From NCBI GenBank assembly GCA_903867985.1, contig CAIPTO010000082.1:7580-71579 (forward strand): a DNA stretch of 64,000 bases, in the 5' to 3' direction. This DNA comes from an uncultured Elusimicrobia bacterium. GTDB lineage: Bacteria > Elusimicrobiota > Elusimicrobia > Elusimicrobiales > UBA9959. Below the pieces are notes generated by a model. The model made no database searches. It was given only the letters and a program-made list of their open reading frames with translations, and was not told the DNA's origin. Made by a program: the position numbers and the translations under genes. Of this stretch, positions 5,735 through 58,809 are shown one piece after another; within the stretch, counting starts at the first letter, position 1, and each line of letters opens with the position of its first letter.

Positions 5735-8596
5735 ATGACCACTGAAAACATGGACTACTCCAAAACGGTTTTTCTGCCTAAGACGGCTTTCTCCATGAAA
5801 GCCGACTTGCCAAAAAAAGAGCCCGGCCTGCTGGAGTTCTGGAATAAAATAAACCTTTACGCCAAAATGCTGGAAAAACGCAAAGACGCCAAGCCTTATA
5901 TCCTGCACGACGGGCCGCCGTACGCCAACGGCCACATTCATATCGGCCACGCCCTGAATAAACTCCTAAAGGACATGACGGTAAAGTCCCGCTGCCTCAC
6001 CGGTCATTATACACCCTATGTTCCCGGCTGGGACTGTCACGGCCTTCCCATAGAGCAGGCCCTGCTCAAAGAACTGAAGATGGGCAAAAGGCATATTGAC
6101 GACGTAGCCGCTTTCAGGAAAAAGGCCAGGGAATTCGCCGGGAAATTTATAGACATACAGCGCGAAGAATTTAAGCGCCTGGGGATCATGGCCGATTGGG
6201 CTAATCCGTATATCACCATGTCCAACGACTACGAGGGCACGGTCATAAAAGCTTTCCGTGAACTGCTGGAAAAAGGCCATATTCACCGGGACAAGAAGAC
6301 TATTTACTGGTGCATCTCCTGCGAGACCGCCCTGGCCGACGCAGAGGTTGAATACAAGGACAAGACGTCGCCGTCCGTCTATGTTAAATTCCCGCTCCGG
6401 GACCCTTCAATATCTCTTTTCGGCGCCGCAGTCGAAGGGAGAAAGGTTTCTATCGTTATCTGGACCACCACGCCCTGGACCCTGCCGTCCAATATGGCGG
6501 CCGCCGTCTCGAAAGAAGAAACCTACCGTCTGCTGAACATAGATGGGGAATATCTGGTAGTGGCCGATAAACTGGCGGATTCTTTCCTTGCCGAAACCGG
6601 CGTTAATGCTTCTAAGGGCGCGCAGATCCCGGGCGAAAAATTGGTGGGCCTGAAATACGACCATTGCCTTGCGCCGCATATGCCTGAAAGCCGCCGCTTT
6701 CCAAGGGTCATAATCTCCACTGATTTCGTGGATATGTCCACCGGCACGGGCATCGTGCATATAGCGCCCGGACACGGAGAAGAAGACTTTCACGCCGGCA
6801 AGAAATGGGGGCTTGAAGTGTTCTGTCCGGTAAACGAGGAAGGCCGCTTCACCGCTGACGCCGGCATATTTGAGGGGCTGAAAGTTTTTGAGGCAAATGA
6901 AAAAGTGCTTGAAACTTTGAAAGGAGACGGATTGCTGCTCGGCTCCAAGGTCATATCTCACAGCTATCCGCACTGCTGGCGCTGCAAACAGCCTGTCATC
7001 TTTCGCGCCACTGAGCAATGGTTTCTCAAGGTGGACCTGAAAGACCTGCGCGGAGCGCTGCTTAAGGAAGCCGACAAGGTAGAGTGGATCCCCAAAGCCG
7101 GCCACGAGCGTATGGTTTCAATGCTCAAACAGCGGCCAGACTGGTGCCTTTCCCGCCAGAGATACTGGGGGACTCCGATCATGGCTCTGTACTGCGAGGA
7201 CTGCGGCAAGCCTCAGACAGACAGCGGCCTGCTGAAAGGCTTTGAGGAAAGAGTGTTCAGCGAAGGCAGCGATTTTTGGTTCTCCGAAGATGTTAAAAGC
7301 TTGCTCCCCACGGGGTATAAATGCGCCTGCGGCGGAACCGCGTTCCGCAAAGAAAAAGACATCATGGACGTATGGCTGGATTCGGGCGTTTCCTGGTACG
7401 CGGTCTTAAAAGACAAAAAAAGGTTCCCGGTGACCGGTAGCCAATCCGCCCTGTCACCTATGACCGCTGGTTCCGCCTACCCCGCCGACATGTACCTGGA
7501 AGGTTCCGACCAGCACCGCGGCTGGTTCCAGACCTCGCTTATTCCGTCGGTGGCGCTCAACGGCCATCCGCCCTATAAGACAGTGCTTACCCACGGCTTC
7601 GTCCTGGACGACCACGGCCGGGCCATGCATAAATCCATGGGCAATGTCGTAGCTCCCCAGGAAGTAATAACCAAGTACGGCGCCGAAGTGCTGCGCCTCT
7701 GGGTGGCTCTGAGCGACTATTCAGAGGATATCCGCATTTCAGACAAGCTTCTCAGCGGCCCCATAGACACCTACCGCAAGATCCGCAACACTATGCGCTA
7801 CCTGCTCGGGAATTTGAGCGACTTTAAACCCGAAAACAGGCTTGAGGAAGCCCGCCTTCTGGAGATAGACCGCTATATACTTATGCGCCTGGCTGAAGTC
7901 ACAGCTAAGGTGCGCGGACATTATGAAGCATTCGAGTTCCGTCAGGCCATACGCGCCGTCACGGATTTCTGCATATTGGACCTTTCGGCTTTTTATCTGG
8001 ACGCTATTAAGGACCGGCTATACACTTATAGCGCGGATTCCGTGGAGCGCCGCTCAGCCCAGACCGCGCTTTACGACATACTGACCGCCGTTCTTAAGAT
8101 GATCAGCCCTGTGCTGTCGTTCACGGCCGAGGAAGGTTGGCAGACGCTTAAGGCCGAGATAGCGCCGGGGCTTGAAGAGAGCGTTTTCCTGACCGACTAC
8201 CCCCGATTTGCGGACTCACGGCTGAATAAAGAGCTTGGAGAAAAATGGGCGCGCATGATGGGGCTGCGCGAAACAGTTACTAAGGCCATAGAGGAGCGCC
8301 GCCGCGAAACCGTCGTCGGCTCTTCGCTGGAGGCCAAAGTCACTTTCCGTACCTCCGGCGCGGATATGAATAAATTCCTTTCCGATACGCTGTCTTTCTG
8401 GCCTCAGATACTTATCGTTTCATCCTGCGCGCTTGAGTTTGACCCCGCGGCCGGGGAGTTTGAGGTCCGGGTGGAGCATGCGGACGGAGACAAGTGCCCG
8501 CGCTGCTGGCAATGGAAGAAGGATATAGGGGCGGATGCCGCGCGCGCCGGGGTCTGCGGCCGCTGCGCCGAAGCCCTGAATAAAATAAAGGCCTGA
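5735..8596 (+). CDS. ileS: Isoleucine--tRNA ligase
   Basis: HDGPPYANGHIHIGH, PGWDCHGLPIE, WCLSRQRYWG, EGSDQHRGWF, MHKS, C-terminal CPRC..CGRC; start moved to ATG 5735 (GAGGA upstream). Confidence 0.97.
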   Translation: MTTENMDYSKTVFLPKTAFSMKADLPKKEPGLLEFWNKINLYAKMLEKRKDAKPYILHDGPPYANGHIHIGHALNKLLKDMTVKSRCLTGHYTPYVPGWDCHGLPIEQALLKELKMGKRHIDDVAAFRKKAREFAGKFIDIQREEFKRLGIMADWANPYITMSNDYEGTVIKAFRELLEKGHIHRDKKTIYWCISCETALADAEVEYKDKTSPSVYVKFPLRDPSISLFGAAVEGRKVSIVIWTTTPWTLPSNMAAAVSKEETYRLLNIDGEYLVVADKLADSFLAETGVNASKGAQIPGEKLVGLKYDHCLAPHMPESRRFPRVIISTDFVDMSTGTGIVHIAPGHGEEDFHAGKKWGLEVFCPVNEEGRFTADAGIFEGLKVFEANEKVLETLKGDGLLLGSKVISHSYPHCWRCKQPVIFRATEQWFLKVDLKDLRGALLKEADKVEWIPKAGHERMVSMLKQRPDWCLSRQRYWGTPIMALYCEDCGKPQTDSGLLKGFEERVFSEGSDFWFSEDVKSLLPTGYKCACGGTAFRKEKDIMDVWLDSGVSWYAVLKDKKRFPVTGSQSALSPMTAGSAYPADMYLEGSDQHRGWFQTSLIPSVALNGHPPYKTVLTHGFVLDDHGRAMHKSMGNVVAPQEVITKYGAEVLRLWVALSDYSEDIRISDKLLSGPIDTYRKIRNTMRYLLGNLSDFKPENRLEEARLLEIDRYILMRLAEVTAKVRGHYEAFEFRQAIRAVTDFCILDLSAFYLDAIKDRLYTYSADSVERRSAQTALYDILTAVLKMISPVLSFTAEEGWQTLKAEIAPGLEESVFLTDYPRFADSRLNKELGEKWARMMGLRETVTKAIEERRRETVVGSSLEAKVTFRTSGADMNKFLSDTLSFWPQILIVSSCALEFDPAAGEFEVRVEHADGDKCPRCWQWKKDIGADAARAGVCGRCAEALNKIKA
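7422..7471. repeat. Degenerate heptamer inverted array inside ileS
   Basis: GGTTCCC GGTGACC GGTAGCC ... CTGTCAC CTATGAC; coincides with extra residues before YPADMYLEGSDQ. Confidence 0.4.
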
Positions 8597-8612
8597 ACCG
8601 GGACACTGGACT

Positions 8613-9092: not shown

Positions 9093-9145
9093 TTTCAAGG
9101 AGTTAGCGGAGTTACTGTCTTGCTGCCGCGCTGTCTGTAATTTTT

Positions 9146-13195: not shown

Positions 13196-13334
13196 TTGCC
13201 ATAAGCCATAGGCTTTAGGCTATAAGCTTTAAGCCATACGCGGAAAATAGGAACTCTCTAAAGTATACGGCGTACGACAAATAGCAATCGGCAGCCGGTA
13301 TTCTGCCTATGGCGTATGGCTTAAAGCTTATAGC
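13196..13334. repeat. Inverted heptamer arrays (family A), empty hairpin element
   Basis: Left GCCATAA GCCATAG GCTTTAG GCTATAA GCTTTAA GCCATAC GCGGA; right TTCTGC CTATGGC GTATGGC TTAAAGC TTATAGC. Confidence 0.9.
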
Positions 13335-13342
13335 AGTTTATT

Positions 13343-16111: not shown

Positions 16112-16831
16112 ATGGCGAATATAAAAGTCGTTCTGGTCACTCGTGATCTGGGGGTCGCGGGGTTTTGCGCCGCGGCCTTCAATAATTCTTTTGCGGATTT
16201 TGAATGCGCCTGCGACTCCGGAAAATTCAGGGAAGCGCTGAAAGCCGGGTTCGACGCCATTCTGCTGGATATGGCTGATCTGGCTGATTTGACGGGCTTT
16301 AAAACCACGGAAGACGCGTGCGGCCATCTCAGGAGACTGGGGCGTAAAAATGTGATAATCGTCATGAGCGCAGCCGTTCTGCCTCCGGGTCAGGTGGTGT
16401 CCATTTTAAACAGCGGCGCGAACGATGTTATTACCGGAGAATGGCGGTTTCGGGTGATAGCGGAACAGGTAAAAGCGCTGGTTAACTTCTCCTCCGTGGG
16501 AATTAAAAAAAGCAGAAAAAAGGTATCCCTGAACGACGGCTCCATCACCATGGATATCGCGGCCCGGAGATGTATGGTAACGGAGGGCGCCGCCTCCGCG
16601 AGAGAGGTTTCCCTGACCGGAAATGAATTCAAGATTTTAAACCTTATGGTTTCGCGCAAAGGTGCGCTTGTTACCTATATGGATTTTAAGAATAAGCTGT
16701 GGCCGGACAGGATGTTCCAGGCCGAAGTCAAGCACTCCCTTCTGCAGCATCTGACCGATCTGAGAAGGAAGCTGGGCCCGCTGGGCGCGCGGATAGAAAA
16801 TGTGTGGGGAGAAGGGTTCCGGATAACCTGA
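16112..16831 (+). CDS. OmpR-family winged-helix regulator, degenerate receiver
   Basis: LTGNEFKIL, LRRKLG...IENVWGEGF; receiver lacks the acidic pair and the KP motif. Confidence 0.8.
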   Translation: MANIKVVLVTRDLGVAGFCAAAFNNSFADFECACDSGKFREALKAGFDAILLDMADLADLTGFKTTEDACGHLRRLGRKNVIIVMSAAVLPPGQVVSILNSGANDVITGEWRFRVIAEQVKALVNFSSVGIKKSRKKVSLNDGSITMDIAARRCMVTEGAASAREVSLTGNEFKILNLMVSRKGALVTYMDFKNKLWPDRMFQAEVKHSLLQHLTDLRRKLGPLGARIENVWGEGFRIT

Positions 16832-20243: not shown

Positions 20244-20293
20244 GACAGTGGATAGTGGTTAGTGGACAGTGGCCGGTAAACCAGTGAGCGGTG
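20244..20293. repeat. Heptamer array (AGTG core, family B) starting right after a stop codon
   Basis: GACAGTG GATAGTG GTTAGTG GACAGTG GCCGGTA. Confidence 0.85.
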
Positions 20294-28620: not shown

Positions 28621-28640
28621 GAGGTATGGAGGGCTTGATA

Positions 28641-29435: not shown

Positions 29436-29445
29436 TTATAAATAA

Positions 29446-29520: not shown

Positions 29521-29531
29521 TTTTTTAGCAG

Positions 29532-35356: not shown

Positions 35357-35360
35357 AATC

Positions 35361-35448: not shown

Positions 35449-35476
35449 ATCAAATTAGGTTTTATATATTTATATT

Positions 35477-35881: not shown

Positions 35882-35885
35882 ATCT

Positions 35886-35927
35886 GGCTTACGGCTTATA
35901 GCATACGGCTTACGGCGTATGGCAATG
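35886..35927. repeat. Heptamer array (family A, right arm only)
   Basis: GGCTTAC GGCTTAT AGCATAC GGCTTAC GGCGTAT GGCAATG. Confidence 0.85.
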
Positions 35928-35937
35928 GTTTACAACT

Positions 35938-36360: not shown

Positions 36361-36376
36361 CCGGCGGTTATTTTTT
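36352..36376. terminator. Possible bidirectional intrinsic terminator
   Basis: AAAAAATAACC-GGC-GGTTATTTTTT. Confidence 0.5.
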
Positions 36377-36395
36377 AGAGGCAAGTGATAACAAC

Positions 36396-36514
36396 TAGTG
36401 CGTAGTGGTTAGTGAATAGTGAATAGTGAATAGTGAATAGTGAATAGTGAATAGTGACTTACCACTTACCACTTACCACTTACCACTTATCACTTATCAC
36501 TTATCACTTATCAC
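36396..36514. repeat. Abutting inverted heptamer arrays (family B)
   Basis: TAGTGCG TAGTGGT (TAGTGAA)x6 TAGTGAC, then (TTACCAC)x4 (TTATCAC)x4. Confidence 0.95.
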
Positions 36515-36538
36515 TTAACCTTATTACCCTGTTTAACT

Positions 36539-37630: not shown

Positions 37631-37700
37631 GAGATATAGGGCCGGGACGCCGTGGGGCATACCCGGAAAAAGTCGTGAGTCGGAAAAATAGGAGCAGTTT

Positions 37701-38675
37701 ATGAAACAAAATATTCGCGGTAAAGCTTTAATTTCAGTTTTATTTTCATCGGTCATGCTTACGGCCTACGGCTTATGGCCCGCGGCCTTGGGCGCTCAAC
37801 CCCTGACTGAGGAGGCAACTTCGTATAACGAAGTTCCCCAGGAAATCGTGATCAAGTCGGAAAGCGAAGACAAGATCCGGACCACCAAGCCGCCGCTGAA
37901 GATCAAGACGGATGACTTGGAGAGCATCAGGGAATCCCTCGAGCCGGACAAAGATCTTTTTCTGTACGGCGAGTTCGCGAGCGTTTCCCAGGATTATCCG
38001 GAAAAGTTGTTTTCGACCAGAGTGATACAGCCCTGGCGGGCCGGGTTCAGCGATAAAACCGTTATAGCTTTTTATCCGCTGCGCAAGTTTTCAGAGGCTT
38101 TTAACAGGAATTCATTTGACGGTAATTCCAAAGAGATCCAATGGACGCTTTCGGTCACCGACGAGGAGGGCAAGATCTTTCACAAATACGCCGGGACAGG
38201 CGTGCCGCCGGAATCTATATTCTGGACCGGCGAGAACGATCAGCGGGAATGGCTTAAAGCCGGGCATAATTACGCTCCGGTTTACGTCTTCGTGGACGAG
38301 ATGGGCGCGCTTAAGACCATTGTCGGAGATATTATAAAGTTTACCGCGATAGTATTCCAGAAAGACAGCAACCTTAACATAAGTCTGGATTCAGTCTCCG
38401 TATTCGGGCCTACCAAATCCATGAAGACAGTGGATAAGGTTCTGGGTGAAGCGCTGCTTACCGCCACATGCGACCTTATTAAGCGGCGCTATTATAATGT
38501 TCCGGTCAAGGTCAACGTTTACGCCCAGACCAAGGACCTGGCCGAACAACAGGCCGACCAAGTAAGCAATTTTCTTAAAAAAGAGCTTATGACCGGAGCA
38601 AATCTCATAACCTATGAAGGTTTTGACGAAAGTTTCGCCCAGCAGCGGATCGACGTGATTTTGATGAATAAGTGA
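37701..38675 (+). CDS. Exported hypothetical protein (FlgD-like segment, degenerate OmpA-like C-terminus)
   Basis: Signal peptide; WTLSVTD..GKI...Y.G.G.PP..I.WTG; ends QQRIDVIL. Confidence 0.6.
   Translation: MKQNIRGKALISVLFSSVMLTAYGLWPAALGAQPLTEEATSYNEVPQEIVIKSESEDKIRTTKPPLKIKTDDLESIRESLEPDKDLFLYGEFASVSQDYPEKLFSTRVIQPWRAGFSDKTVIAFYPLRKFSEAFNRNSFDGNSKEIQWTLSVTDEEGKIFHKYAGTGVPPESIFWTGENDQREWLKAGHNYAPVYVFVDEMGALKTIVGDIIKFTAIVFQKDSNLNISLDSVSVFGPTKSMKTVDKVLGEALLTATCDLIKRRYYNVPVKVNVYAQTKDLAEQQADQVSNFLKKELMTGANLITYEGFDESFAQQRIDVILMNK
37757..37791. repeat. Family A heptamer array inside a signal-peptide coding region
   Basis: GCTTACG GCCTACG GCTTATG GCCCGCG GCCTTGG encoding LTAYGLWPAAL. Confidence 0.7.
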
Positions 38676-38684
38676 TATCAGGGG

Positions 38685-38757
38685 AAGTGATAAGTGGTAA
38701 GTGATAAGTGGTAAGTGATAAGTAATAAGACTTACAACTTAATCCTTACAACTTACT
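38685..38757. repeat. Inverted heptamer arrays (family B)
   Basis: AAGTGAT AAGTGGT AAGTGAT AAGTGGT AAGTGAT AAGTAAT AAG then ACTTACA ACTTAAT CCTTACA ACTTACT. Confidence 0.9.
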
Positions 38758-38782
38758 CCTGAGTCTTAATTTCGGAGACAAT

Positions 38783-39658: not shown

Positions 39659-39796
39659 ACGCAAAGCAGTCTAGATGCAAAGCGATCTGGAGGCAAAGCG
39701 ATTTAGAGGGAAAGCAGTTTAGCGGTCTTCTTTGAATCTAAATTGCTAAATGGCTTTGCATCCAGATTGCTAAACTGCCAAACGGCCTTGCATCTA
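39656..39796. repeat. Inverted octamer/16-mer arrays (family E)
   Basis: TAGACGCAAAGCAGTC TAGATGCAAAGCGATC TGGAGGCAAAGCGATT TAGAGGGAAAGCAGTT ... TGCATCCA GATTGCTA AACTGCCA AACGGCCT TGCATCTA. Confidence 0.9.
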
Positions 39797-39805
39797 AAGG
39801 AAATT

Positions 39806-40348
39806 ATGCCTTTTGAGTTTGTAAAATTTAAACTTGACGGTCTTGTGCTGATTAAACCCCGCGTTTTCACCGACGAGCGGGGCTTTTTTCTGGAGGCTTA
39901 TAAATTCAGCGATTTTGAGAGGGCCGGGATAAAAGAAAACTTCGTGCAGGATAATCATTCACGATCCGTCAGGGGCGTCCTGCGGGGCCTGCACTATCAA
40001 AAGCCTCCTGCCGCACAGGGCAAACTGATACGCTGCACTCTGGGCCGCATCCTGGATGTAGCCGTAGACATAAGAAAAGATTCCGCTACTTTTTGTGACT
40101 GGGCGTCAGTAGAATTGAGCGCCGATAACGCCCACATGCTCTATATCCCGCCCGGTTTCGCCCACGGCTTTCTGGTTTTAAGCGATATCGCGGAAATAAT
40201 ATACAAATGCACCAGCGAGTTCGCCCCGGAGCTTGAAGTCGGTATACGCTGGAACGATCCGCGGTTCGGCATCAAGTGGGGCGTAACTGACCCGGCTCTG
40301 TCGCCCAAAGACAGCGTTCTACCCTGGTTTAAAGACGCGGATGTTTAA
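39806..40348 (+). CDS. rfbC: dTDP-4-dehydrorhamnose 3,5-epimerase
   Basis: DERGFFLE, VQDNHSRS..GVLRGLHYQ, GFAHGF; start at ATG 39806. Confidence 0.96.
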   Translation: MPFEFVKFKLDGLVLIKPRVFTDERGFFLEAYKFSDFERAGIKENFVQDNHSRSVRGVLRGLHYQKPPAAQGKLIRCTLGRILDVAVDIRKDSATFCDWASVELSADNAHMLYIPPGFAHGFLVLSDIAEIIYKCTSEFAPELEVGIRWNDPRFGIKWGVTDPALSPKDSVLPWFKDADV

Positions 40349-40362
40349 ACACTCTTCGGTTT

Positions 40363-41211
40363 ATGAAAATTTTAATAACCGGATCAAATGGCCAGCTGGC
40401 GGAAGCGTTCATCCGCCGCTTTGAGGAACAAGGGCACGAGTACCTGGGCCATGACCTCGACACGCTGGATATAGGCGGGCGCGACGCGGTTATTCGGGAG
40501 GTCCGCGCTTTTAAGCCGGGCCTGATAGTCAATTGCGCGGCCTACAATCTGGTGGACAAAGCCGAACAGGACTCTAAGACGGCGTTCAGGGCGAACGCCT
40601 GCGGTCCGGAAAATCTGGCGCTTGCCGCCCTGGAGACCGGCGCTTTTCTTATTCATTTCGGTTCCGATTATATCTTCGACGGCGCCAAGGCTCCAGTCCC
40701 TTACGCTGAAAATGACAAACCGGATCCCCTGAACAAATACGGCGCTTCAAAGCTTGAAGGGGAAAAATTGATAAGGGCGTCCGGCGTCAGGCATCTCATC
40801 CTGCGCGTGAGCTGGGTGTTTGGGAAAGGGAATCAGAATTTTACTGCAAAACTGCTGGAATGGGCCAAAAATCCCGGCGCGGTTACCGTGGCGGCGGATG
40901 AAGTTTCCGTGCCGACCTTCGCGGACGATATTGTTTACGGCTCTATGGCCGCGTTTAAGGCCGGTCTTGAAGGGACATGGCATTTACCCAATACCGGTTC
41001 CTGTTCAAGATATGAGTGGGCGGGTTTGATATTAAAAACTTTGAATATAAATAAAGAGCTGATCCCCGGCCGCATGGCCGATTTTAATCTTCCGGCCCGG
41101 CGCCCCGGTTTTTCCGCCATGTCTAACTCCGCTATTTCCAAAGAGCTGGGCATCACCATACCCGCCTGGCAAGATTCCGCGCGTGCTTTTATAAGGAGAC
41201 AGAATGCCTAA
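40363..41211 (+). CDS. rfbD: dTDP-4-dehydrorhamnose reductase
   Basis: [40 protein letters not shown]. Confidence 0.95.
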
Positions 41212-41944
41212 AGTTATGATAGTCCTTCCGGCGTACAACGCCGAAAAAACCCTCCCGGCCACCCTTGCGGACATACCGGCCGAATATCGCTCCAATGTTA
41301 TACTTGTGGACGACTGTTCTAAAGACAAAACAGCAGAGGCGGCCGCTGGCTTCGGCATTACCGTAGTCCGGCATGAGTCCAATAAAGGCTACGGCGGCAA
41401 TCAAAAAACCTGCTACCGCGAAGCGCTTAAGGCCGGGGCCGATATCGTTGTGATGCTGCACCCGGACTATCAATATAACCCAAAGGTTATCCCGCACCTG
41501 GTCGGCGTGATAGACGCCGGCATTTGCGACATGATGCTGGGGAACCGTATCCGCACCCGCCGCGAAACTCTGGCCGGAGGCATGCCCTTTTACAAATATC
41601 TCTCCAACCGCTTCCTCTCCCTGCTCTGCAATGTGGTGGCCGGGGAAAATCTGGGCGAATGGCACAGTGGCATGCGCGCTTATTCCCGCAAGGTGCTTTT
41701 AACCATTCCCTGGGAGAATAACACCGACGACTTCGCTTTTGACATGCAGTTTCTGGCGCAGGCTTCTTATTTCGGTTTCAGAATGGGCGATATCCCGGTT
41801 GAAACCAAATATTTTAAGGACGCTTCCTCTATAAATTTTATCCGCAGCCTCAAATACGGGCTGCATACGCTGGTGATACTCGCTCAATTCCTGCTGCAGA
41901 AGAGCGGTTTGTTTAAGCCGGGGCTTTTCCGGAAGATAAAATGA
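41204..41944 (+). CDS. GT2 glycosyltransferase (DPM1-like, polyprenol-P glycosylation)
   Basis: [30 protein letters not shown]. Confidence 0.9.
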
Positions 41945-43404: not shown

Positions 43405-44508
43405 ATGCACACAATACTTGTCACCGGCGGCGCCGGGTTTATAGGCTCAAATTTTATACGCTTTGTTTTTGAGAAAACCGGTTTTTCCGGCAGGATAGTG
43501 AACCTGGATAAGCTGACCTACGCCGGCAATCTGGAAAGCCTGGAAGATATCCGCCGCAAATATAAAGGCCGCTATACTTTTGTTAAAGGCGACATCTGCG
43601 ATTATAAAACCGTTCTGGGGCTGATGAAAAAGCACGGCGTGGATACAGTGGCGCATTTCGCGGCCGAATCCCACGTCGACCGCTCTATCTACGGACCGAA
43701 GGATTTTATAGAGACGAACATTCACGGCACGTTCAGCCTGCTTGAAGCCGCCCGCCAGTTCTGGCAGCCGGCGCCGGAAAAAAAGGCGTCTTCGGGGCTT
43801 CGCTTCCGTTTCCACCATGTCAGCACGGACGAGGTCTACGGTTCCCTGGGGAAAACCGGGAAGTTCAGGGAAACTACCCCTTACGATCCCCGCAGCCCCT
43901 ATTCCGCTTCGAAAGCTTCTTCTGACCATATCGTACGGGCTTACCACCATACCTACGGTCTGCCGGTCACTATTTCAAACTGCTCTAATAATTACGGCCC
44001 CTATCATTTTCCGGAAAAACTTATTCCTCTGGCTATTTTAAACGCGCTGGAGGGCAAACCGCTCCCGGTTTACGGCGACGGCCTGCAGGTGCGCGACTGG
44101 CTGTATGTCACGGACCATTGTGCTGCCATCTGGCGTATCCTTCAGAAAGGCCGGGCGGGGGAAACCTATAACATAGGAGGCAACTGCGAGAAGGCCAATA
44201 TAGATGTCGTTAAAGAGATCTGCCGCGGACTTGAGCGCGCGCGCCCGTCACGCGGCAATCCGGCTTTAAAAGGGCGGAAATATTCCGACCTTATAACTTT
44301 TGTCAAAGACCGGCCCGGCCATGACCGCCGTTACGCCATAGACGCCTCCAGGATCAAGGGGGAACTAGGTTGGAGGCCGGCCCACGATTTTAAAACCGGC
44401 CTCGCGTCCACCATAAACTGGTATCTGCAAAATGCCGCCTGGCTGGCCTCCGTTAAAAAAGCTTCCTATTCCGGCTGGCTGGATAAGAACTATAGCTGCC
44501 GTAAGTAG
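43405..44508 (+). CDS. rfbB: dTDP-glucose 4,6-dehydratase
   Basis: [50 protein letters not shown]. Confidence 0.97.
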
Positions 44509-44555
44509 AGGATTGGAGGATTAGAGGACTAGAGGACTAGAGGACTAGAGGATTG
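44508..44555. repeat. Octamer array GAGGAYTR x6 (family D, left arm)
   Basis: GAGGATTG GAGGATTA GAGGACTA GAGGACTA GAGGACTA GAGGATTG, beginning at the rfbB stop. Confidence 0.95.
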
Positions 44556-44627
44556 GCTGTGGTGATTTTCATTATTTGATAGAATGTCTTTAACCTGATA
44601 AGTCAATAACTGAAAAGGGGATTTTTT

Positions 44628-48041: not shown

Positions 48042-49202
48042 ATGAAAAATAAAAACCTTCCATCCTCATCTTTTTGGCGTGACAAAAAGGTATTCCTCAC
48101 CGGACATACCGGCTTTAAAGGCGCCTGGCTCTCCATCTGGCTGGACGCTATGGGAGCAGAAGTCACAGGTTACGCTCTTAAGCCTCCCACAAAACCGAGC
48201 CTTTTCGAACTGTGCCGCGTTGACCGCTCCGTTAAGTCACTTATAGCCGATATCCGTGACGCAGGGCGCCTGCAAAAAGCTGTCCTGGCGGCAAGGCCGG
48301 AAATAGTAATTCACATGGCCGCCCAGCCCATAGTCCGGCAATCCTATAAAGATCCGCGCGAAACTTATGAAACCAATGTCATGGGTACGGTAAACCTGCT
48401 TGAGGCCGTCCGTAATTGCGGTACTGTGCGGGCCGTAGTCAATGTCACCACCGATAAATGCTACGAAAACAAGGAGCATCTCCGCGGGTACAAAGAGGAT
48501 GAACCCATGGGCGGTTATGATCCGTACTCAAGCAGCAAGGCCTGTTCAGAACTCGTCACTGCGGCCTATCGCAACTCCTTCTTTAATCCCAAATCTTATC
48601 GTGCCTCCTGCCGATCCTCCAGTCCTCTAATCCTCCAGTCCTCTAATCCTCCAGTCCTCCAATGCGCCCACCATGTGGCCCTGGCTTCAGCCCGGGCGGG
48701 AAATGTTATCGGTGGCGGGGATTGGGCGGCCGACCGCCTTATTCCGGACATAATACGCGCGGCTTTAAAGGGGGACAAAGTCCTTATCCGCAATCCCAGG
48801 GCAATACGCCCCTGGCAGCATGTTTTGGAACCGCTCAGCGGCTATCTGGTTCTGGCTGAAAAACTTTATAAGCGGGGCCCCGGTTACGCCCAGGCCTGGA
48901 ATTTCGGTCCCGACGCGGGCGACGCCAAAGACGTGGAATGGATAGCGGAACGGATGTTCTCCGCCTGGCCCGAAGCCCCCGGCTACGCTCTGGATAAAGG
49001 CCTTCACCCCCATGAAGCGCATTACCTGAAACTTGACTCCGCCAAAGCCCGCCGCGAACTCGGCTGGGCCCCGCGCTGGCGCATAGGCCAGGCCATAGAT
49101 AAAATAATAGAATGGACCCTGGCGTATCAAAACAGTCTGGATATGCGGGATGTGACCCTTGGACAAATAAAGGAATATATTGCCATAAGCCATAGGCTTT
49201 AG
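48042..49202 (+). CDS. rfbG: CDP-glucose 4,6-dehydratase (carries in-frame repeat insertion)
   Basis: TGHTGFKGAWL, HMAAQP.VR.SY, TTDKCYEN, DPYSSSK, ARAGNVIGGGDW, RPWQHVLEPL. Confidence 0.96.
   Translation: MKNKNLPSSSFWRDKKVFLTGHTGFKGAWLSIWLDAMGAEVTGYALKPPTKPSLFELCRVDRSVKSLIADIRDAGRLQKAVLAARPEIVIHMAAQPIVRQSYKDPRETYETNVMGTVNLLEAVRNCGTVRAVVNVTTDKCYENKEHLRGYKEDEPMGGYDPYSSSKACSELVTAAYRNSFFNPKSYRASCRSSSPLILQSSNPPVLQCAHHVALASARAGNVIGGGDWAADRLIPDIIRAALKGDKVLIRNPRAIRPWQHVLEPLSGYLVLAEKLYKRGPGYAQAWNFGPDAGDAKDVEWIAERMFSAWPEAPGYALDKGLHPHEAHYLKLDSAKARRELGWAPRWRIGQAIDKIIEWTLAYQNSLDMRDVTLGQIKEYIAISHRL
48612..48663. repeat. Octamer array YARTCCTC x6 (family D, right arm) in frame within rfbG
   Basis: CGATCCTC CAGTCCTC TAATCCTC CAGTCCTC TAATCCTC CAGTCCTC CAAT. 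Confidence 0.95.
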
Positions 49203-49667
49203 GCCGTAAGCTATAAGCCGTAGGCAGATTGGAAGAGGGAGCGAAATGGAAAAGTGGAAGAGTCTTGAGGTTTGGCAACTTGCTAATGATCTGGCGCATA
49301 AGGTTTATTTGGCAACAAAAGATTTTCCTAAAGAAGAGCTATATGGGCTGACATCCCAATTACGCCGGGCTGCTTTGTCAGTTCCTACGAATATAGTGGA
49401 GGGACATTCCAGGAGTGGGGATAAAGAACTTGCACGATTCTTAAATATTTCTTTGGGATCTCTCGGCGAAACAAAGTATCTTCTTTTCTTTTCAAATCAG
49501 TTGCAGTATTTGCCGGAGAAGTCTTTTCTTGAGTTGGATAAGTTAACCCAAGACGTTGGCGTAAAACTTTGGGCGTTCTATAAAGTTGTAAAAGAATAGT
49601 TCTGTTCTGCGTATGGCTAAATCTTATGGCCTAAAGCCTAAAGCCTAAAGCCTAAAGCTTATGGCAA
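49180..49667. mobile_element. Putative cassette: four-helix-bundle gene enclosed by inverted family A heptamer arms
   Basis: Perfect 11-bp terminal inverted repeat TTGCCATAAGC (49180-49190) / GCTTATGGCAA (49657-49667); arms 49182-49228 and 49605-49665; mobility is inferred, no TSD seen. Confidence 0.6.
49246..49599 (+). CDS. Four helix bundle protein (23S rRNA IVP family)
   Basis: L.VWQ.A..L...VY..TK.FPKEELYGLTSQLRRAA.SVP.NI.EG..R......RFL.IS.GSL.E. Confidence 0.93.
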   Translation: MEKWKSLEVWQLANDLAHKVYLATKDFPKEELYGLTSQLRRAALSVPTNIVEGHSRSGDKELARFLNISLGSLGETKYLLFFSNQLQYLPEKSFLELDKLTQDVGVKLWAFYKVVKE

Positions 49668-50433: not shown

Positions 50434-50677
50434 CTCCGCTCAGTCCTTTGCTGACTGCAGCAAACTCATTAAAAATGGCATATAGGGGAGCCAGTAAGTT
50501 CGCGAGGTCGCCGAGGGGTGGGTTCCAAAAACCAGGGTCGGGACACACCGTGCCCGCCCTTCCCTTCCTCAGCCTCGCCGCTTACGTAAGTCTCGGCTTC
50601 CGGAGGGTTTTTTCCACCCACCCCTCGGCGCCTGCTCCATTGATTCATATGTGAGGCCTGCGCATGGTGATTTAACT
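50413..50677. mobile_element. Structured non-coding insert flanked by 23-bp direct repeats
   Basis: GGCCTGCGCATGGTGATTTAACT at 50413-50435 and 50655-50677; internal perfect 15-bp stem 50509-50523/50616-50630. Confidence 0.6.
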
Positions 50678-50746
50678 TCGCCAGTCCTGCACTAGCTTTA
50701 AAAATGCAGTCAAATGCAACATTTGCGCCAAGTGGGTCCTTTGGGC

Positions 50747-50778
50747 GGATCCGCCAGTCCTTTGGCCCTCTAATCCTC
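50747..50778. repeat. Degenerate family D octamer right arm
   Basis: GGATCCGC CAGTCCTT TGGCCCTC TAATCCTC. Confidence 0.55.
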
Positions 50779-50796
50779 TCATACAAATTGCTATAA

Positions 50797-50984
50797 TTAA
50801 CCTAAATCCTGCAGTTAAAGATAGATTTCGTTTGGGAAAACCGGGAACATGATTATTCTGCAGGATTTCCCGCACACCGGGCTGAGGGCCCAGCGCTATG
50901 CGCGCCTGGCCCGAAGAGGTGTATGCCTCCCGAATGGGCGCCCGCAATGCGGGCGGAAAGTTGCAGCTGCAACTTTTAGGTTAA
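50797..50984. mobile_element. MITE-like element
   Basis: Terminal inverted repeats TTAACCTAAAtccTGCAG / CTGCAactTTTAGGTTAA; GC-rich internal hairpins; no credible ORF. Confidence 0.65.
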
Positions 50985-51019
50985 CTATATAATAAGCGAT
51001 TTGGAACTGAGGGACTGAA

Positions 51020-52534
51020 ATGGGCCTCAAAACTGCTAAAACCGAAAAAAAACTGCGCAAAGAGATACTTCGTAAGGTTTCGGAGTATCATGGCCTTTTC
51101 CATAAGAAAAAGGACTTTGAGCCAGGCAAGTCTTTTGTCGCTTACGGCGGAAGGGTATATGACGGGAAGGAATTATGCAATCTTGTCGGTTCCGCCCTTG
51201 ATTTCTGGCTTACTTCCGGCCCATATGTTGACGCTTTCGAGAAAAAGTTCGGAGAATTCCTTGGCGTCAGGCATGTTTCCCTCGTAAATTCCGGCTCATC
51301 GGCCAATCTTCTGGCGTTCATGGCCCTCACCTCCCCGAAACTTGGCGAAAGGCGCATAAAGCCCGGTGATGAGGTTATAACCGTCGCCGCCGGCTTTCCT
51401 ACCACGGTTACTCCTATAATCCAGTACGGCGCGGTCCCCGTCTTCGTTGATGTCGAAATTCCGTCCTATAATATCGATTGTTCTCTGCTGGAAAAAGCTC
51501 TTTCAAAAAAGACCAAAGCCGTAATGGTCGCCCACACTTTGGGCAACCCCTTTGACCTGAAAAAGGTCCGCGCTTTTTGCGACAAGCATCGCCTCTGGCT
51601 AATTGAGGATAACTGCGACGCTCTGGGCAGTAGGTACAGAAGAATGGAGGACTGGAAGACTGGAGGACTAGCCAAACCCGCGGATCTTTGCCGCTGCCAA
51701 TCCTCTAATCCTACAACCCTCCAAAAATCTGCTCTCTTGCCAATCCTCCAATCCTCTAATCCTCTAATCTTCCAATACACCGGAACTTTCGGCGATATCG
51801 GTACTTCCAGCTTCTATCCGCCGCATCATATGACCATGGGCGAGGGGGGAGCGGTCTATACTGATAACCCCCAGCTTAAAAGGCTTGTGGATTCTTTCCG
51901 TGACTGGGGCCGCGACTGCTGGTGCCCGTCCGGAAAAGACAACACTTGCGGTAAGAGATTCACCCGGCAGTTCGGCGAGCTTCCTTTGGGCTACGACCAC
52001 AAGTATGTTTACTCTCATTTCGGTTATAATCTCAAGGCCACCGAGATGCAGGCTGCCGTCGGCCTGGCCCAGCTTGAAAAGCTTCCCAAATTCATTGAAG
52101 CCAGAAAAAAGAACTGGCAATACCTGCGCAAAGCCCTTAATTCTTTTTCGGATAAGCTTATCCTGCCCGAACCCGCCGATAATTCCGACCCCAGCTGGTT
52201 CGGCTTCCTGCTGACGGTCAGGGGGAACGCCGGCTTCACCCGCGAAGAGCTGGTCAGCCATCTTGAGGCCAATAAAATACAAACCCGCGTGCTGTTCGCA
52301 GGCAACCTTATAAAGCACCCCTGCTTCGACGAAATGCGCCGCTCCGGCAAAGGCTTCCGCGTCGTAGCCGGCGCTTCTCGCCAGTCCTCCAATCCTCCAA
52401 TCCTCCTGGCCTCATTGCCCGTTACCGACCAGATCATGCGCGACACTTTCTGGATAGGCGTCTATCCCGGCATGACCGTAGAAATGCTGAAGTATGTCTC
52501 GGATACTTTTAAATCTTTTTTTAACCGTTCGTAA
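51020..52534 (+). CDS. rfbH: CDP-4-keto-6-deoxy-D-glucose 3-dehydratase (E1), with two in-frame repeat insertions
   Basis: [60 protein letters not shown]. Confidence 0.95.
51639..51776. repeat. Complete family D hairpin (left arm plus two right arms) in frame within rfbH
   Basis: GAAGAATG GAGGACTG GAAGACTG GAGGACTA ... CAATCCTC TAATCCTA CAACCCTC ... CAATCCTC CAATCCTC TAATCCTC TAATCTTC CAAT. Confidence 0.95.
52382..52413. repeat. Family D right arm in frame within rfbH C-terminus
   Basis: CAGTCCTC CAATCCTC CAATCCTC CTGGCCTC. Confidence 0.9.
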
Positions 52535-57290: not shown

Positions 57291-57291
57291 G

Positions 57292-57534
57292 TTCTGCGTA
57301 TGGCGTAAATCGTAAGCAATTCTGCAAATGGCCTAAATCGTGAAGCGGAAAACGTAAAGCGTAAATAGTAAGAAGTCTTTATTCTGCTTATGGCTTAAAT
57401 CGTAAAGCGTAAAACGTAAATAGTAAAAGATTCTGCAAATGGCCTAAATCGTAAAGCGGAAAACGTAAAGCGTAAATAGTAAAAGATTCTGCGTATGGCA
57501 AACGGCGAATGGCATATGGCAAACGGCTTACGGA
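57292..57534. repeat. Five tandem family A right-arm modules, each starting TTCTGC
   Basis: TTCTGC at 57292, 57320, 57382, 57431, 57487, each followed by heptamers such as AAATGGC CTAAATC GTAAAGC GGAAAAC. Confidence 0.92.
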
Positions 57535-57537: not shown

Positions 57538-57579
57538 TTGATATTTACCTCCAAATATCCTAATATGTACCATATTAGG
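57538..57579 (+). promoter_or_regulatory. Promoter with overlapping palindromic operator-like site
   Basis: TTGATA -17 bp- TAATAT; perfect CCTAATATG-TAC-CATATTAGG at 57559-57579. Confidence 0.55.
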
Positions 57580-57599
57580 TGAATGGGTTCACCCAAAAC

Positions 57600-58736
57600 A
57601 TGCATATTAAGAGAACTATACAGGCGAGTATTGAAAAGAGCCTTTTCAAAAACAAGGTTCTTATACTTTACGGCGCGCGGCAAGTGGGCAAGACCACTTT
57701 GGTCCGGGAGATACTTAAAAAGCATCCGGGGCAGTCAGCGTATTTAAATTGCGATGAACCTGACATTCGTGCCGCTTTGACAGACAAGACTTCTACCGAA
57801 CTTAAAGTTTTTTTTAAGGAAAAAAAGTTTATTGTTCTTGATGAGGCCCAGCAGGTCAAAAACATCGGCCATACGCTTAAAATAATAGCCGACAATCTGC
57901 CGTCCACGCAGATCCTTGCCACCGGATCGTCCTCTTTTGAGCTTTCAGACAAAATAGCCGAGCCTTTAACCGGAAGAAAGAGGGAGTTTCTGCTCTATCC
58001 GTTCTCTTTCCAGGAATTGGCGTCTTTCTATTCGGAAGTTGAAATGGACAGGCTGCTTGAACGCCGTATTATTTATGGCATGTACCCTGAAATAGTAGCC
58101 GGTAAAGAAAACACCGAGATAAACCTTAAAAGCCTTGCGCGCAGCTATTCTTACAAGGATGTTCTTAAATACCAGAATATAAAAAACCCGGATCTGCTGG
58201 AAAAGCTCCTGCAGGCCTTGGCGCTCCAGGTCGGCAATGAGGTGTCTTATAATGAGCTGGCAGCCCTTTTAGGGATAGATAAGAATACCGTGGCGTCCTA
58301 TATTCAGATCCTTGAAAAGGCGTTTATTATTTTCAGAGTGGGGCCGTTCAGCAGGAATTTACGCAACGAACTTAAAAAACTCCGTAAAATTTATTTCTAC
58401 GATACCGGGCTCCGCAACGCTCTTATAAACAATCTTAATCCGCTTGATCTGCGCCAGGATGTGGGGGCTTTGTGGGAAAATTTTGTTATATCCGAAAGAC
58501 GGAAGTTCCTCGCCAATACCGCTCTTGATAGAAAAGGGTATTTCTGGCGGACAGCCCAAAAACAGGAGATCGACTATCTGGAAGAAGGCGGGGGACATTT
58601 GTGGGCGTTTGAAGTAAAATGGAGAAAAGAAAAATTCAGGACCCCGAAAGTATTTTCACAGGCATATCCTGACGCGGAAGTTTCGCTGGTGACCTCAAAA
58701 AATTATAAAGATTTTATAGGCGCGGTCAAAGCGTAA
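57600..58736 (+). CDS. AAA_14 ATPase with DUF4143 (wHTH and PD-(D/E)XK-like C-terminus)
   Basis: GARQVGKT, LDEAQ, TGSSS, LTGRK, KIYFYDTGLRN, GALWEN, YFWR....EID, AFEVKW. Confidence 0.9.
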   Translation: MHIKRTIQASIEKSLFKNKVLILYGARQVGKTTLVREILKKHPGQSAYLNCDEPDIRAALTDKTSTELKVFFKEKKFIVLDEAQQVKNIGHTLKIIADNLPSTQILATGSSSFELSDKIAEPLTGRKREFLLYPFSFQELASFYSEVEMDRLLERRIIYGMYPEIVAGKENTEINLKSLARSYSYKDVLKYQNIKNPDLLEKLLQALALQVGNEVSYNELAALLGIDKNTVASYIQILEKAFIIFRVGPFSRNLRNELKKLRKIYFYDTGLRNALINNLNPLDLRQDVGALWENFVISERRKFLANTALDRKGYFWRTAQKQEIDYLEEGGGHLWAFEVKWRKEKFRTPKVFSQAYPDAEVSLVTSKNYKDFIGAVKA

Positions 58737-58809
58737 ATCGACAATCGGAAAGCGGAAAGCGTGAAACGTAAAGCGGAAAACGTAAAGCGTAAAGCCTAAA
58801 GCCTATGGC
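58726..58809. repeat. Family A heptamer array (12 units); supplies the ATPase stop codon
   Basis: TCAAAGC GTAAATC GACAATC GGAAAGC GGAAAGC GTGAAAC GTAAAGC GGAAAAC GTAAAGC GTAAAGC CTAAAGC CTATGGC. Confidence 0.92.

What the first reader, a model, noticed from the sequence alone, without database searches (positions are those of the whole stretch)
7422..58809. Window-wide system of oriented 7/8-mer tandem-array hairpins that invade intergenic gaps and reading frames, linked to a four-helix-bundle gene
Seen: about 20 arrays belonging to at least five unrelated unit families. A is GCCATAA/TTATGGC/GTAAAGC, B is AGTG/CACT heptamers, C is GGNNNAG/CCTNTAC, D is GAGGAYTR/YARTCCTC octamers, and E is TAGATGCA-AAGCAGTT. 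They share one architecture: a left arm starting at or just after a stop codon, then a complementary right arm ending just before the next RBS or start codon. Wherever both arms occur together, their order on the + (sense) strand is the same within a family. Several stop codons come from the repeat itself (rfbA, rfbB, rfbG, the ATPase). Known: cyanobacterial STRR heptamers and Rickettsia palindromic elements in ORFs are partial precedents, and the four-helix-bundle (IVP) family is structurally related to the RNA-binding DGR protein Avd. Inference: shared geometry with divergent units suggests an active array-generating or mobilising process, or an RNA-level structural code, rather than random slippage.
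Basis: partly seen in the sequence, partly recalled or inferred. Interest (0 to 1): 0.9.

Follow-up and report, generated by a model that had tools for sequence, protein, structure and literature searches.

The report
Repeat-armed hairpins carrying four-helix-bundle genes
Between many genes of this freshwater bacterium sit fast-changing hairpins whose two arms are runs of 7- or 8-letter repeats, and the small "ribosomal RNA intervening-sequence protein" genes ride inside such hairpins here and in many other bacteria, which ties together three old puzzles.

Summary
The genome (an Elusimicrobiota MAG, 2.62 Mb) holds 155 period-7/8 tandem arrays against 0-2 in shuffles. They fall into about 7 unit families, and 13 lie in the window at the strict threshold. 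58 of 155 have a reverse-complement partner within 600 nt (control 2 of 155). In 54 of 57 classified pairs the purine-rich arm is the 5' arm.

Sense and antisense folds are equally stable.

The arrays turn over fast. Sites are filled or empty against a 90%-identical relative. In-frame hairpins of different unit families occupy the same codon of a DegT gene in three congeners.

The four-helix-bundle (4HB) link holds widely:
- Both PF05635 genes of the genome lie in hairpin loops.
- So do 17 of 28 in the family and 46 of 63 in metagenome contigs (controls 1 and 4).
- Three of six cyanobacterial plasmid copies show the same by that measure.

In a related genome one such hairpin occupies the apical loop of a 23S rRNA helix that I take to be helix 45.

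I read these as STRR-like, IVS-like hairpin elements with 4HB genes as cargo. The mechanism is inferred, not shown.

The parts
13196..13342 (.). A-family hairpin (GCCATAA-type left arm, loop, cap TTCTGC plus NNATGGC-type right arm) filling the spacer between a peptidase-MA-like gene and a P-type ATPase gene
   Evidence: -56.4 kcal/mol, z -5.4; 23-bp perfect stem
20244..20290 (.). B-family purine arm (AGTGGAT-type units) starting 1 nt after a stop codon
35357..35450 (.). Hairpin with GCCATTN / NAATGGC heptamer arms between exbB and exbD
   Evidence: z -4.4. The orthologous spacer in L001 carries different arms
35882..35937 (.). GGCTTAC-type heptamer array between the two exbD genes
   Evidence: L001 has 135 nt more here, with K and A arrays
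36396..36523 (.). B-family hairpin: 7 perfect TAGTGAA units, then CTTACCA/CTTATCA units, between exbD and tonB
   Evidence: z -6.5. L001 has a degenerate version
38673..38762 (.). B-family hairpin that starts in the TGA stop codon of the upstream gene and ends 21 nt before rfbA
   Evidence: z -4.3. The site is empty (13-nt spacer) in L001
39656..39800 (.). E-family hairpin of 16-nt units. The left arm starts with the TAG stop of rfbA. The right arm lies before the Pfam-matched part of rfbC
   Evidence: -58.5 kcal/mol, z -5.9. L001 has 7 units instead of 4
44504..44559 (.). D-family purine arm (TAGAGGAC/TGGAGGAT octamers) that supplies the TAG stop of the rfbB-like dehydratase gene. No complementary arm was detected in the spacer
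48608..48669 (+). In-frame D-family pyrimidine array inside the rfbG-like dehydratase gene (peptide [19 protein letters not shown])
   Evidence: The insert at the same site is absent in G006 and differs in G004, G001 and G003
49175..49245 (.). A-family purine arm overlapping the last 7 codons and the stop of the rfbG-like gene. It is the left arm of the 4HB cassette
   Evidence: 18 of 20 complementary to the right arm
49246..49599 (+). Four-helix-bundle gene (PF05635 / TIGR02436, 117 aa) lying in the loop of the A hairpin
   Evidence: The cassette is absent from the orthologous site in G001 and G003
49600..49666 (.). Cap motif TTCTGCGTATGGC plus the A-family right arm of the 4HB cassette, ending 24 nt before the MBL-fold gene
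51630..51779 (+). Complete D-family hairpin inserted in frame in the DegT aminotransferase gene (about 40 extra residues)
   Evidence: -42 kcal/mol, z -3.5
52377..52415 (+). Second in-frame D-family pyrimidine array in the same DegT gene
   Evidence: an E-family array at the same place in G002; none in G004 or G001
57291..57530 (.). Composite K/A arrays with 49-56-nt higher-order repeats (cap TTCTGCNNATGGC plus K units) upstream of the AAA_14/DUF4143 ATPase gene
58728..58805 (.). K-family purine array that contains the TAA stop of the ATPase gene and runs into A-type units
9110..9140 (.). Short F-family stretch (CTGTCTTGCTGCCGCGCTGTCTG) in a 53-nt spacer
   Evidence: The F family is defined genome-wide

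Best explanation
What it is. The arrays form one genome-wide class of STRR-like elements. Each is a short tandem run of 7- or 8-nt units (median 5 units). The runs come as inverted pairs: a purine-rich 5' arm and a complementary pyrimidine-rich 3' arm. Together the arms make long, periodically mismatched hairpins that fill the spacer between a stop codon and the next ribosome-binding site in operons.

Shown:
- The elements are gained, lost, resized and exchanged between unit families on the time-scale of species within a genus.
- They tolerate in-frame insertion in proteins.
- In a same-family genome one of them sits in the apical loop of a 23S rRNA helix that I take, by recall, to be helix 45, the classical site of rRNA intervening sequences (IVS).
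- PF05635/TIGR02436 four-helix-bundle genes, the '23S rRNA IVS protein' family, lie in their loops in Elusimicrobiota, in metagenome contigs of unknown taxa and in cyanobacterial plasmids.

Inferred:
- They are selfish or near-neutral DNA-level elements. They spread and change by slippage, by template switching between the arms, and by copying of whole modules.
- They persist where they do little harm, that is in stop-to-RBS spacers, protein surface loops and the apical loops of rRNA helices.
- Once transcribed, each folds into a stem-loop in the polycistronic RNA. As with IVSs, this stem-loop is probably a substrate of RNase III.
- The 4HB gene is a passenger that depends on read-through transcription from the host operon.
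For: Reality and scale:
- Arrays number 87 (period 7) and 60 (period 8), against 0-16 for periods 4-6 and 9-11 and 0-2 in shuffles. There are 155 merged arrays, and 143 fall into families K/H, D, B, F, A, C, G and E.
- 114 of 155 lie outside ORFs, although only 9.1% of the genome is intergenic.

Hairpins:
- A reverse-complement partner at 16 or more of 20 exists for 58 of 155 arrays, against 2 of 155 in the control.
- The purine arm comes first in 54 of 57 pairs.
- Fold z-scores are -3.5 to -6.5.

DNA-level character:
- There is no sense/antisense difference in stability.
- 35 A-family copies share the non-repetitive cap TTTCTGCGTATGGC. This argues for copying rather than independent slippage.

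Turnover:
- Six spacers were compared with L001, which is collinear at about 90% nt identity. Two are presence/absence differences and four differ in units or copy number.
- DegT carries hairpins of D, E and GGAAGGTT units at one codon in G000, G002 and G004. G001 and five further orthologues have none.
- The rfbG-like insert is variable or absent among congeners.

IVS link:
- A 79-nt insertion, the core of a B-type array hairpin, sits in the apical loop at Rfam LSU positions 1206-1226 of the G010 23S rRNA (z -6.2).

4HB link:
- 2 of 2 genes in G000, against 32 of 2140 genes overall.
- 17 of 28 in the family, against 1 of 28 in the control.
- 46 of 63 metagenome loci, against 4 of 63. Period-7/8 arrays occur in the flanks, and at most one array is found at any other period.
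- 3 of 6 cyanobacterial plasmid loci by score, and heptamer arrays beside 5 of 6.
- The cassette site is empty in G001 and G003.
- The 4HB gene is co-oriented with both neighbours in 18 of 26 loci and antisense to both in 1.

Supporting points:
- RNase III is encoded in the genome.
- RNase III excision of an S23p-bearing IVS with 28-bp terminal inverted repeats has been published (PMC4990558, passages read).
Against: - No enzyme or mechanism for spread was identified.
- The two Y1 transposases have their own REPs, not heptamer arrays.
- The arms are mostly not exact copies of each other. In-register match is 64%, against 55-56% one unit out of register. This fits two independently degenerating arrays better than a copied palindrome.
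- 97 of 155 arrays have no partner at the threshold used.
- No RNA data exist.
- The fixed purine-first order is unexplained by a neutral model.
- G001 has arrays (4 in 94 kb) but no small 4HB gene, so the arrays do not need a resident 4HB gene.
- The gene calls come from a crude ORF caller of my own. The 41-42 'coding' arrays (41, 42) are an upper bound, because open pyrimidine arms let ORFs run on upstream.
Confidence: 0.6

Rival explanations
1. The hairpins are selected RNA-level devices, maintained site by site in operons. The left arm sits within reach of the terminating ribosome and the right arm abuts the next ribosome-binding site. Translation of the upstream gene would then open the hairpin (translational coupling), or the stem would stabilise or insulate cistrons.
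For: Geometry:
- Purine arrays start a median 5.5-8 nt after the stop codon.
- Pyrimidine arrays end a median 7-17 nt before the start codon.

Distribution among spacers: observed co-directional 93, convergent 10 and divergent 7, against 75.4, 15.5 and 19.1 expected by spacer length (p = 0.001).

Literature:
- The same roles have been suggested for cyanobacterial STRR hairpins between hupS and hupL (PMC2670836, passage).
- Heptamer repeats affected reporter expression in Nostoc (bioRxiv 10.1101/2022.06.06.494920, passages).
Against: - Sense and antisense strands fold equally well, so there is no G-U signature of selection on the transcript.
- Sites are empty, or occupied by a different unit family, in genomes with about 90% identical flanking genes. 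A site-specific function is therefore dispensable.
- The same elements sit inside ORFs and inside 23S rRNA.
- The geometry also follows simply from insertion into spacers that were only 7-20 nt long.
Confidence: 0.2
2. The arrays are ordinary long simple-sequence repeats made by polymerase slippage. They have no element identity, and the neighbourhood of 4HB genes is incidental.
For: - Heptanucleotide repeats are the commonest long SSR class in many prokaryotes, and slippage was proposed as the cause (as reviewed in PMC4679880, passages).
- One window array has 7 perfect copies where the relative has degenerate units, which suggests a recent slippage expansion.
Against: - Slippage alone does not pair each array with a complementary array in a fixed order (58 against 2; 54 of 57).
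- It does not reuse about 7 unit families at 143 sites.
- It does not place different families at one codon.
- It does not enclose 4HB genes in 17 of 28, 46 of 63 and 2 of 2 cases.
Confidence: 0.08
3. The hairpins are REPIN- or MITE-like non-autonomous transposable elements, mobilised in trans by a transposase encoded elsewhere in the genome.
For: - They are dispersed hairpin elements about 80-150 nt long in spacers.
- The A family has a conserved end motif.
- Filled and empty sites occur.
- Two Y1 (IS200/IS605-type) transposase genes are present.
Against: - Both Y1 transposase genes are flanked by their own, different palindromes: AAAGGTAGCGTCTACCTTT and TTAAAGTGACACACAACTTAA.
- No target-site duplication was seen at the two empty/filled pairs read.
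- Arm sequences are far more heterogeneous than those of REPINs.
- The arms are not exact inverted copies.
Confidence: 0.15
4. The 4HB protein is the element's own factor. The pentameric ring would bind the repeat arms, one protomer per unit, and would promote their formation, spread or protection. Gene-less hairpins would then be its non-autonomous partners.
For: - The closest solved relative, 2GSC, is deposited with five chains. It is described as a homopentameric toroid in PMC4990558.
- Arrays have a median of 5.0 units, IQR 4.4-5.7.
- The number of 4HB genes and array density correlate across 13 genomes (Spearman 0.85).
- The two 4HB cassettes of G000 use the K and A arms, two of the commoner heptamer families.
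Against: - The correlation is confounded by G+C (rho -0.80 with both variables) and by kinship.
- G001 has arrays without a small 4HB gene.
- Two 4HB genes cannot plausibly recognise 7 unrelated unit sequences.
- The lower bound of 4 units is set by my detection threshold.
- The cited Coxiella study concluded that S23p is probably not made in vivo (PMC4990558 abstract).
Confidence: 0.25

Closest known systems
Cyanobacterial STRR (short tandemly repeated repetitive) heptamer sequences
   Same: - Both are tandem heptamers of several unit families.
- Both are mostly intergenic and able to form hairpins between genes of an operon (PMC2670836 passage). Left and right complementary forms are noted in Nostoc.
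- STRR also occurs inside a structural RNA gene (title of Vioque 1997, seen in a reference list).
   Different: - The host here is Elusimicrobiota, not cyanobacteria.
- Octamer and 16-mer families are as common as heptamers.
- I found no description of the systematic purine-first inverted pairing, the in-frame coding inserts or the nesting of 4HB genes in the papers searched.
- The classic STRR papers of the 1990s are not in the library and are recalled only.
23S rRNA intervening sequences (IVS) with or without an S23p ORF
   Same: - Both are stem-loops closed by complementary termini, with an optional PF05635 ORF in the loop.
- Both occupy the apical loop of the same 23S helix, identified as helix 45 by recall.
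- Both have a sporadic distribution.
- RNase III excision is published for IVSs (PMC4990558).
- A repeat-armed hairpin occupies this site in G010.
   Different: - Here the elements are mostly in mRNA spacers and ORFs, not in rRNA.
- Their stems are tandem arrays with periodic mismatches rather than near-perfect 28-bp stems.
- Cleavage by RNase III is not tested.
Rickettsia palindromic elements (RPE)
   Same: Both are palindromic repeats inserted in frame into protein-coding genes without destroying the frame, as in DegT and the rfbG-like gene.
   Different: - RPEs are conserved 100-150-nt sequences, not arrays of 7/8-nt units.
- There is no known 4HB cargo.
- This comparison rests on recall; no RPE paper was read.
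REP/REPIN elements with RAYT transposases
   Same: - Both are dispersed intergenic hairpins in operon spacers.
- The genome does have two such systems, one with a copy in the window at 28536-28625.
   Different: The array hairpins are not the palindromes that flank the Y1 transposase genes. They are much more variable and have internal 7/8-nt periodicity.
TAACTGA and other intergenic heptamer direct repeats of Beggiatoaceae, Microcystis, Bacteroidetes and Geobacter
   Same: They are intergenic heptamer arrays close to start codons. They are patchily distributed and are missing from orthologous spacers of close relatives (PMC4679880 and PMC2700814, passages).
   Different: - Those are described as direct repeats, essentially without inverted partners (169 direct sets and one indirect in the abstract of PMC4679880).
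- Their supplementary tables could not be seen.

Membership tests
STRR-type tandem heptamer repeats | Tandem arrays of a 7-nt unit, several unit families per genome | tested here: met
   There are also 8- and 16-nt families.
STRR-type tandem heptamer repeats | Predominantly intergenic, able to form hairpins | tested here: met
   114 of 155 arrays lie outside ORFs. 58 of 155 have a complementary partner.
STRR-type tandem heptamer repeats | Host is a (heterocyst-forming) cyanobacterium | tested here: not met
   The relatives are Elusimicrobiota/Elusimicrobiales MAGs.
23S rRNA intervening sequence (IVS) | Extra stem-loop replacing the apical loop of 23S helix 25 or 45 | tested here: inconclusive
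   Met for one element in relative G010 (the helix number is by recall). No 23S rRNA is assembled in G000. The window's elements lie in mRNA spacers and ORFs.
23S rRNA intervening sequence (IVS) | Complementary termini enclosing, in some cases, a PF05635 (S23p) ORF | tested here: met
   Window 49175-49666 and C48:26843-27273.
23S rRNA intervening sequence (IVS) | Excised from the transcript by RNase III | not testable with these tools
   RNase III is encoded.
PF05635 / TIGR02436 four-helix-bundle protein | Score above the curated cut-offs | tested here: met
   PF05635 scores 120.2 bits against a cut-off of 33.8. TIGR02436 scores 111.1 and 120.9 bits against a cut-off of 24. The solved relative is 2GSC.
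DGR accessory protein Avd | Matches the Avd equivalog model and lies beside a DGR reverse transcriptase with template and variable repeats | tested here: not met
   NF033474 scores 26.5 and 32.5 bits against a cut-off of 80. The only RT in the genome is on another contig and matches the group II intron RT model best, below its cut-off.
REPIN/RAYT system | Copies of the repeat flank the Y1 transposase gene | tested here: not met
   Both Y1 genes are flanked by other palindromes.
MITE | Terminal inverted repeats plus a target-site duplication at filled sites | tested here: inconclusive
   Inverted arms are present. No duplication was evident at the two filled/empty pairs read. Only two pairs were read.
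Rickettsia palindromic elements | In-frame insertion of a palindromic repeat in ORFs | tested here: met
   Sequence relatedness to RPEs was not tested.

The most novel reading that the evidence does not exclude
The proposal is that three things are parts of one widespread class of genetic element:
- STRR-type tandem-repeat hairpins;
- the intervening sequences of 23S rRNA;
- the orphan '23S rRNA IVS protein' four-helix-bundle genes.

This element would be a repeat-armed hairpin cassette that colonises stop-to-RBS spacers, loops of structural RNAs and protein surface loops across phyla (Elusimicrobiota, Cyanobacteriota and others). The pentameric 4HB protein would be its own repeat-binding factor, and the many gene-less hairpins would be its non-autonomous relatives.
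Probability: 0.3. Interest if true: 0.9.

Novelty: new variant of a known kind. Interest (0 to 1): 0.8.

Why it matters
STRR repeats have been used for cyanobacterial fingerprinting for decades without a known origin or role. rRNA intervening sequences and their S23p ORFs are equally unexplained. PF05635 genes are annotated by the thousand as 'four helix bundle protein'.

If the nesting found here is general, the three puzzles become one question that can be tested directly:
- Does the 4HB pentamer bind the arms?
- Does RNase III cut the stems in mRNA as it does in rRNA?
- How are modules copied?

There are also practical consequences:
- The elements create hypervariable in-frame segments in surface-sugar enzymes.
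- They shift stop codons.
- They can mislead gene callers, which extend ORFs through the open pyrimidine arms.

Tried and rejected
Transcription polarity. I rejected this as a test once it was clear that an inverted repeat reads identically on both strands. One-armed arrays follow the same geometry, but they may simply have undetected partners.

Strand-specific RNA selection. No difference was found.

Exact palindromes. In-register arm identity is only modestly better than one unit out of register.

Rfam. Only a tRNA is matched in the window.

DGR/Avd and reverse transcriptase. There is no support.

RAYT as mobiliser. The flanking palindromes are different.

23S rRNA of G000. It is not assembled.

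Array density against 4HB count. Spearman rho is 0.85, but it is confounded by G+C and kinship, and it rests on only 66-100 kb per genome. I treat it as a hint only.

Sequencing runs. No RNA holder is listed. DNA holders are lake and freshwater metagenomes from 10 studies. No reads were laid, so within-population variation in unit number and RNA ends were not examined.

Literature. Six searches found no paper linking PF05635 genes to tandem-repeat hairpins. Elhai 2008, Mazel 1990 and Vioque 1997 are not held (for the last) and are recalled or known by title only. Supplementary files of PMC4679880 and PMC2700814, which list repeat loci, were not seen and may bear on how often those repeats are inverted.

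Full report
**Source.**
- The window is G000:C82:7580-71579, from a 2.62-Mb, 147-contig assembly with 52.5% G+C.
- A protein of the window finds its relatives in Elusimicrobiota/Elusimicrobiales MAGs.
- DNA runs that hold the stretch are lake and freshwater metagenomes.
- From 2727 to the end of the window, all genes called but one weak ORF (16390-16659) lie on the + strand.
- The genes include exbB-exbD-exbD-tonB, the rfbACD genes, glycosyltransferases, sugar dehydratases and aminotransferases.

- Tandem Repeats Finder lists period-7/8 arrays throughout the window.
- I ran a genome-wide self-match scan at 17 or more of 21 positions. It gives 87 arrays at period 7 and 60 at period 8, with 60 and 44 at the doubled periods.
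- Other periods give 0, 0, 9, 16, 3 and 11 (periods 4, 5, 6, 9, 10, 11). Locally shuffled sequence gives 0-2. At 19 of 21 the contrast persists.
- Merging gives 155 arrays, 13 of them in the window.
- 143 of the 155 fall into a few unit families:
  - K/H (CGTAAAG/CGTAAAT), 40 arrays
  - D (GGAGGAYT), 30
  - F (a 16-mer), 18
  - B (AGTGRTA), 17
  - A (GCCATAA), 16
  - C (AGGGTAG), 15
  - G, 4
  - E (a 16-mer), 3
- 114 of 155 lie outside ORFs, in a genome that is 9.1% intergenic. Among spacers, co-directional ones are favoured and divergent ones avoided: 93/10/7 observed against 75.4/15.5/19.1 expected.
- The gene calls are from my own crude caller.

**Architecture.**
- 58 of 155 arrays have a reverse-complement partner within 600 nt, at 16 or more of 20 matches. 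A reversed-but-not-complemented control finds 2 of 155.
- In 54 of 57 classified pairs the purine-rich arm is the 5' arm, and this holds in every family.
- Among the 3 exceptions, the one I examined is a pair of arms of neighbouring spacers on either side of a gene, rplV.
- In co-directional spacers, purine arrays begin a median 5.5-8 nt after the stop codon. Pyrimidine arrays end a median 7-17 nt before the start codon.
- Six window hairpins fold at z -3.5 to -6.5.
- An inverted repeat reads the same on both strands.
- Sense and antisense RNAs of 43 spacers are equally stable.
- The arms are complementary at the level of units rather than exact copies: 64% match in register against 55-56% one unit out of register.
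- Purine arms close all three reading frames more often than pyrimidine arms do (60 against 23 of 155). This explains why several genes end in a repeat unit, as confirmed for rfbA, rfbB, the rfbG-like gene and the ATPase.

**Turnover.**
- L001 is collinear with window 29401-41781 at about 90% nt identity. Six spacers were compared:
  - Two are presence/absence differences. The 107-nt B hairpin before rfbA faces a 13-nt spacer in L001. The tonB-downstream spacer carries about 100 nt of arrays only in L001.
  - Four differ in units or copy number.
- Arrays occur in lower-G+C relatives (L001, L002, L004, L015), sometimes with other unit families. None was found in L003 (52% G+C) or in nine loci of 58% G+C or more.
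- The DegT gene carries a complete hairpin in frame, directly after the motif DNCDALGS[RK]Y:
  - D units in G000 (-41 kcal/mol)
  - E units in G002 (-52 kcal/mol)
  - GGAAGGTT units in G004 (-23 kcal/mol)
  - nothing in G001 or in five further orthologues
- A second site in DegT behaves the same way.
- The rfbG-like gene has a variable insert at one site in G000, G004, G001 and G003, and none in G006.

**At least one family is copied, not only slipped.** Thirty-five A-family right arms begin with the same non-repetitive cap, TTTCTGCGTATGGC. The same cap follows the stop codon of the window's 4HB gene.

**The four-helix-bundle link.**
- The genome has two PF05635 genes. Each lies between a purine arm and its complementary pyrimidine arm (18 and 19 of 20).
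- Only 32 of 2140 genes in the genome have such flanks at 16 or more of 20, and 9 at 18 or more.
- In 40 other genomes of the family, 22 have PF05635 matches. Of 30 loci fetched, 28 were testable. Seventeen of these have complementary flanks, against 1 of 28 in the control. One of the 17 is G000's own locus. The unit families differ from genome to genome.
- A metagenome scan returned 80 loci, of which 63 were testable.
  - 46 have complementary flanks, against 4 in the control.
  - Period-7/8 arrays are present in the flanks: 13 + 12 upstream and 11 + 19 downstream. At most 1 array is found at any other period.
  - The upstream arm is purine-rich in 35 loci, pyrimidine-rich in 8 and neutral in 3.
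- A tblastn search of plasmids finds 22 records, nearly all cyanobacterial. Six were fetched.
  - The gene is wedged between RNR genes, between cas6 and cas4, or between cmr2 and cmr3.
  - Three have complementary flanks (20, 19 and 17 of 20).
  - Five have heptamer arrays in at least one flank.
- The window cassette is missing from the orthologous rfbG-to-MBL spacer of G001 (7 nt) and of G003.
- In family loci the gene is co-oriented with both neighbours in 18 of 26 cases and antisense to both in 1.

**The IVS link.**
- G000 has no assembled 23S rRNA.
- In G010, a genome of the same family with nine PF05635 matches, the 23S gene carries a 79-nt insertion, the core of a B-type array hairpin. 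Its arms are AGTGATT AGTGGCG AGTGAAT ... / TTCACTA AACACTA ....
- The insertion lies in the apical loop of the helix at Rfam model positions 1206-1226 (z -6.2). I identify this helix as helix 45 from recall of the E. coli sequence.
- A published IVS with an S23p ORF sits in helix 45, has 28-bp terminal inverted repeats and is cut by RNase III (PMC4990558, passages).
- G000 encodes RNase III.

**Comparison with what is known.**
- Intergenic heptamer arrays are known in cyanobacteria as STRR. Hairpins between hupS and hupL are described in PMC2670836, and left and right heptamers in Nostoc.
- Similar arrays are known in Beggiatoaceae and Bacteroidetes (PMC4679880) and in Geobacter (PMC2700814).
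- In six searches I found nothing on three points:
  - the purine-first pairing rule
  - exchange of unit families at one codon
  - the nesting of PF05635 genes in such hairpins
- The 4HB proteins are members of TIGR02436, not Avd equivalogs. The closest solved structure is 2GSC.

**Verdict.**
- Its 'oriented' and 'RNA code' readings do not.
- Its guess of an active, mobile process linked to 4HB genes is supported and extends across phyla.
- What moves or builds the arrays, and what the 4HB protein does, remain inferred.

Noticed in passing
window 28536-28625: A near-perfect 23-bp palindrome (AAAGGTAGCGTCTACCTTT...) is the same sequence that flanks a Y1 (IS200/IS605-type) transposase gene at G000:C96:1548-2189. 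It looks like a REPIN of a RAYT-like system, distinct from the heptamer arrays.
   Followed up: partly
L062 (G010 23S rRNA), 23S positions about 1973-2604: A roughly 630-nt insertion carries a 198-codon open frame that looks like a LAGLIDADG homing endonuclease, so it is probably a group I intron. The name comes from inspection only; no family search was run.
   Followed up: no
window 50434-51019: A 586-nt spacer between the MBL-fold gene and DegT folds at -239.7 kcal/mol with long-range inverted repeats. It contains D-like units and has no Rfam match.
   Followed up: no
window 57579-58736: An AAA_14/DUF4143 ATPase gene is bracketed on both sides by K-family purine arrays. The upstream block is organised in 49-56-nt higher-order repeats.
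   Followed up: partly
window 37757-37788: Heptamer units (GCTTACG GCCTACG GCTTATG GCC) lie inside the predicted signal-peptide region of the Pfam-less gene 37701-38675, which is conserved in Elusimicrobiales.
   Followed up: no
L213 and L215 (Anabaena sp. 90 and Picosynechococcus plasmids): Four-helix-bundle genes with repeat arms are wedged inside CRISPR-Cas operons, between cas6 and cas4 and between cmr2 and cmr3.
   Followed up: no
window 29446-29561: A tRNA gene is followed directly by C-like units (GGGGATAGGGTAAAGG...GGATTTAGGG).
   Followed up: no
G000:C43:40431-40869: In the ribosomal-protein operon, rplV is flanked by B-like arms of the two neighbouring spacers. The arrays therefore also populate highly expressed essential operons.
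   Followed up: partly
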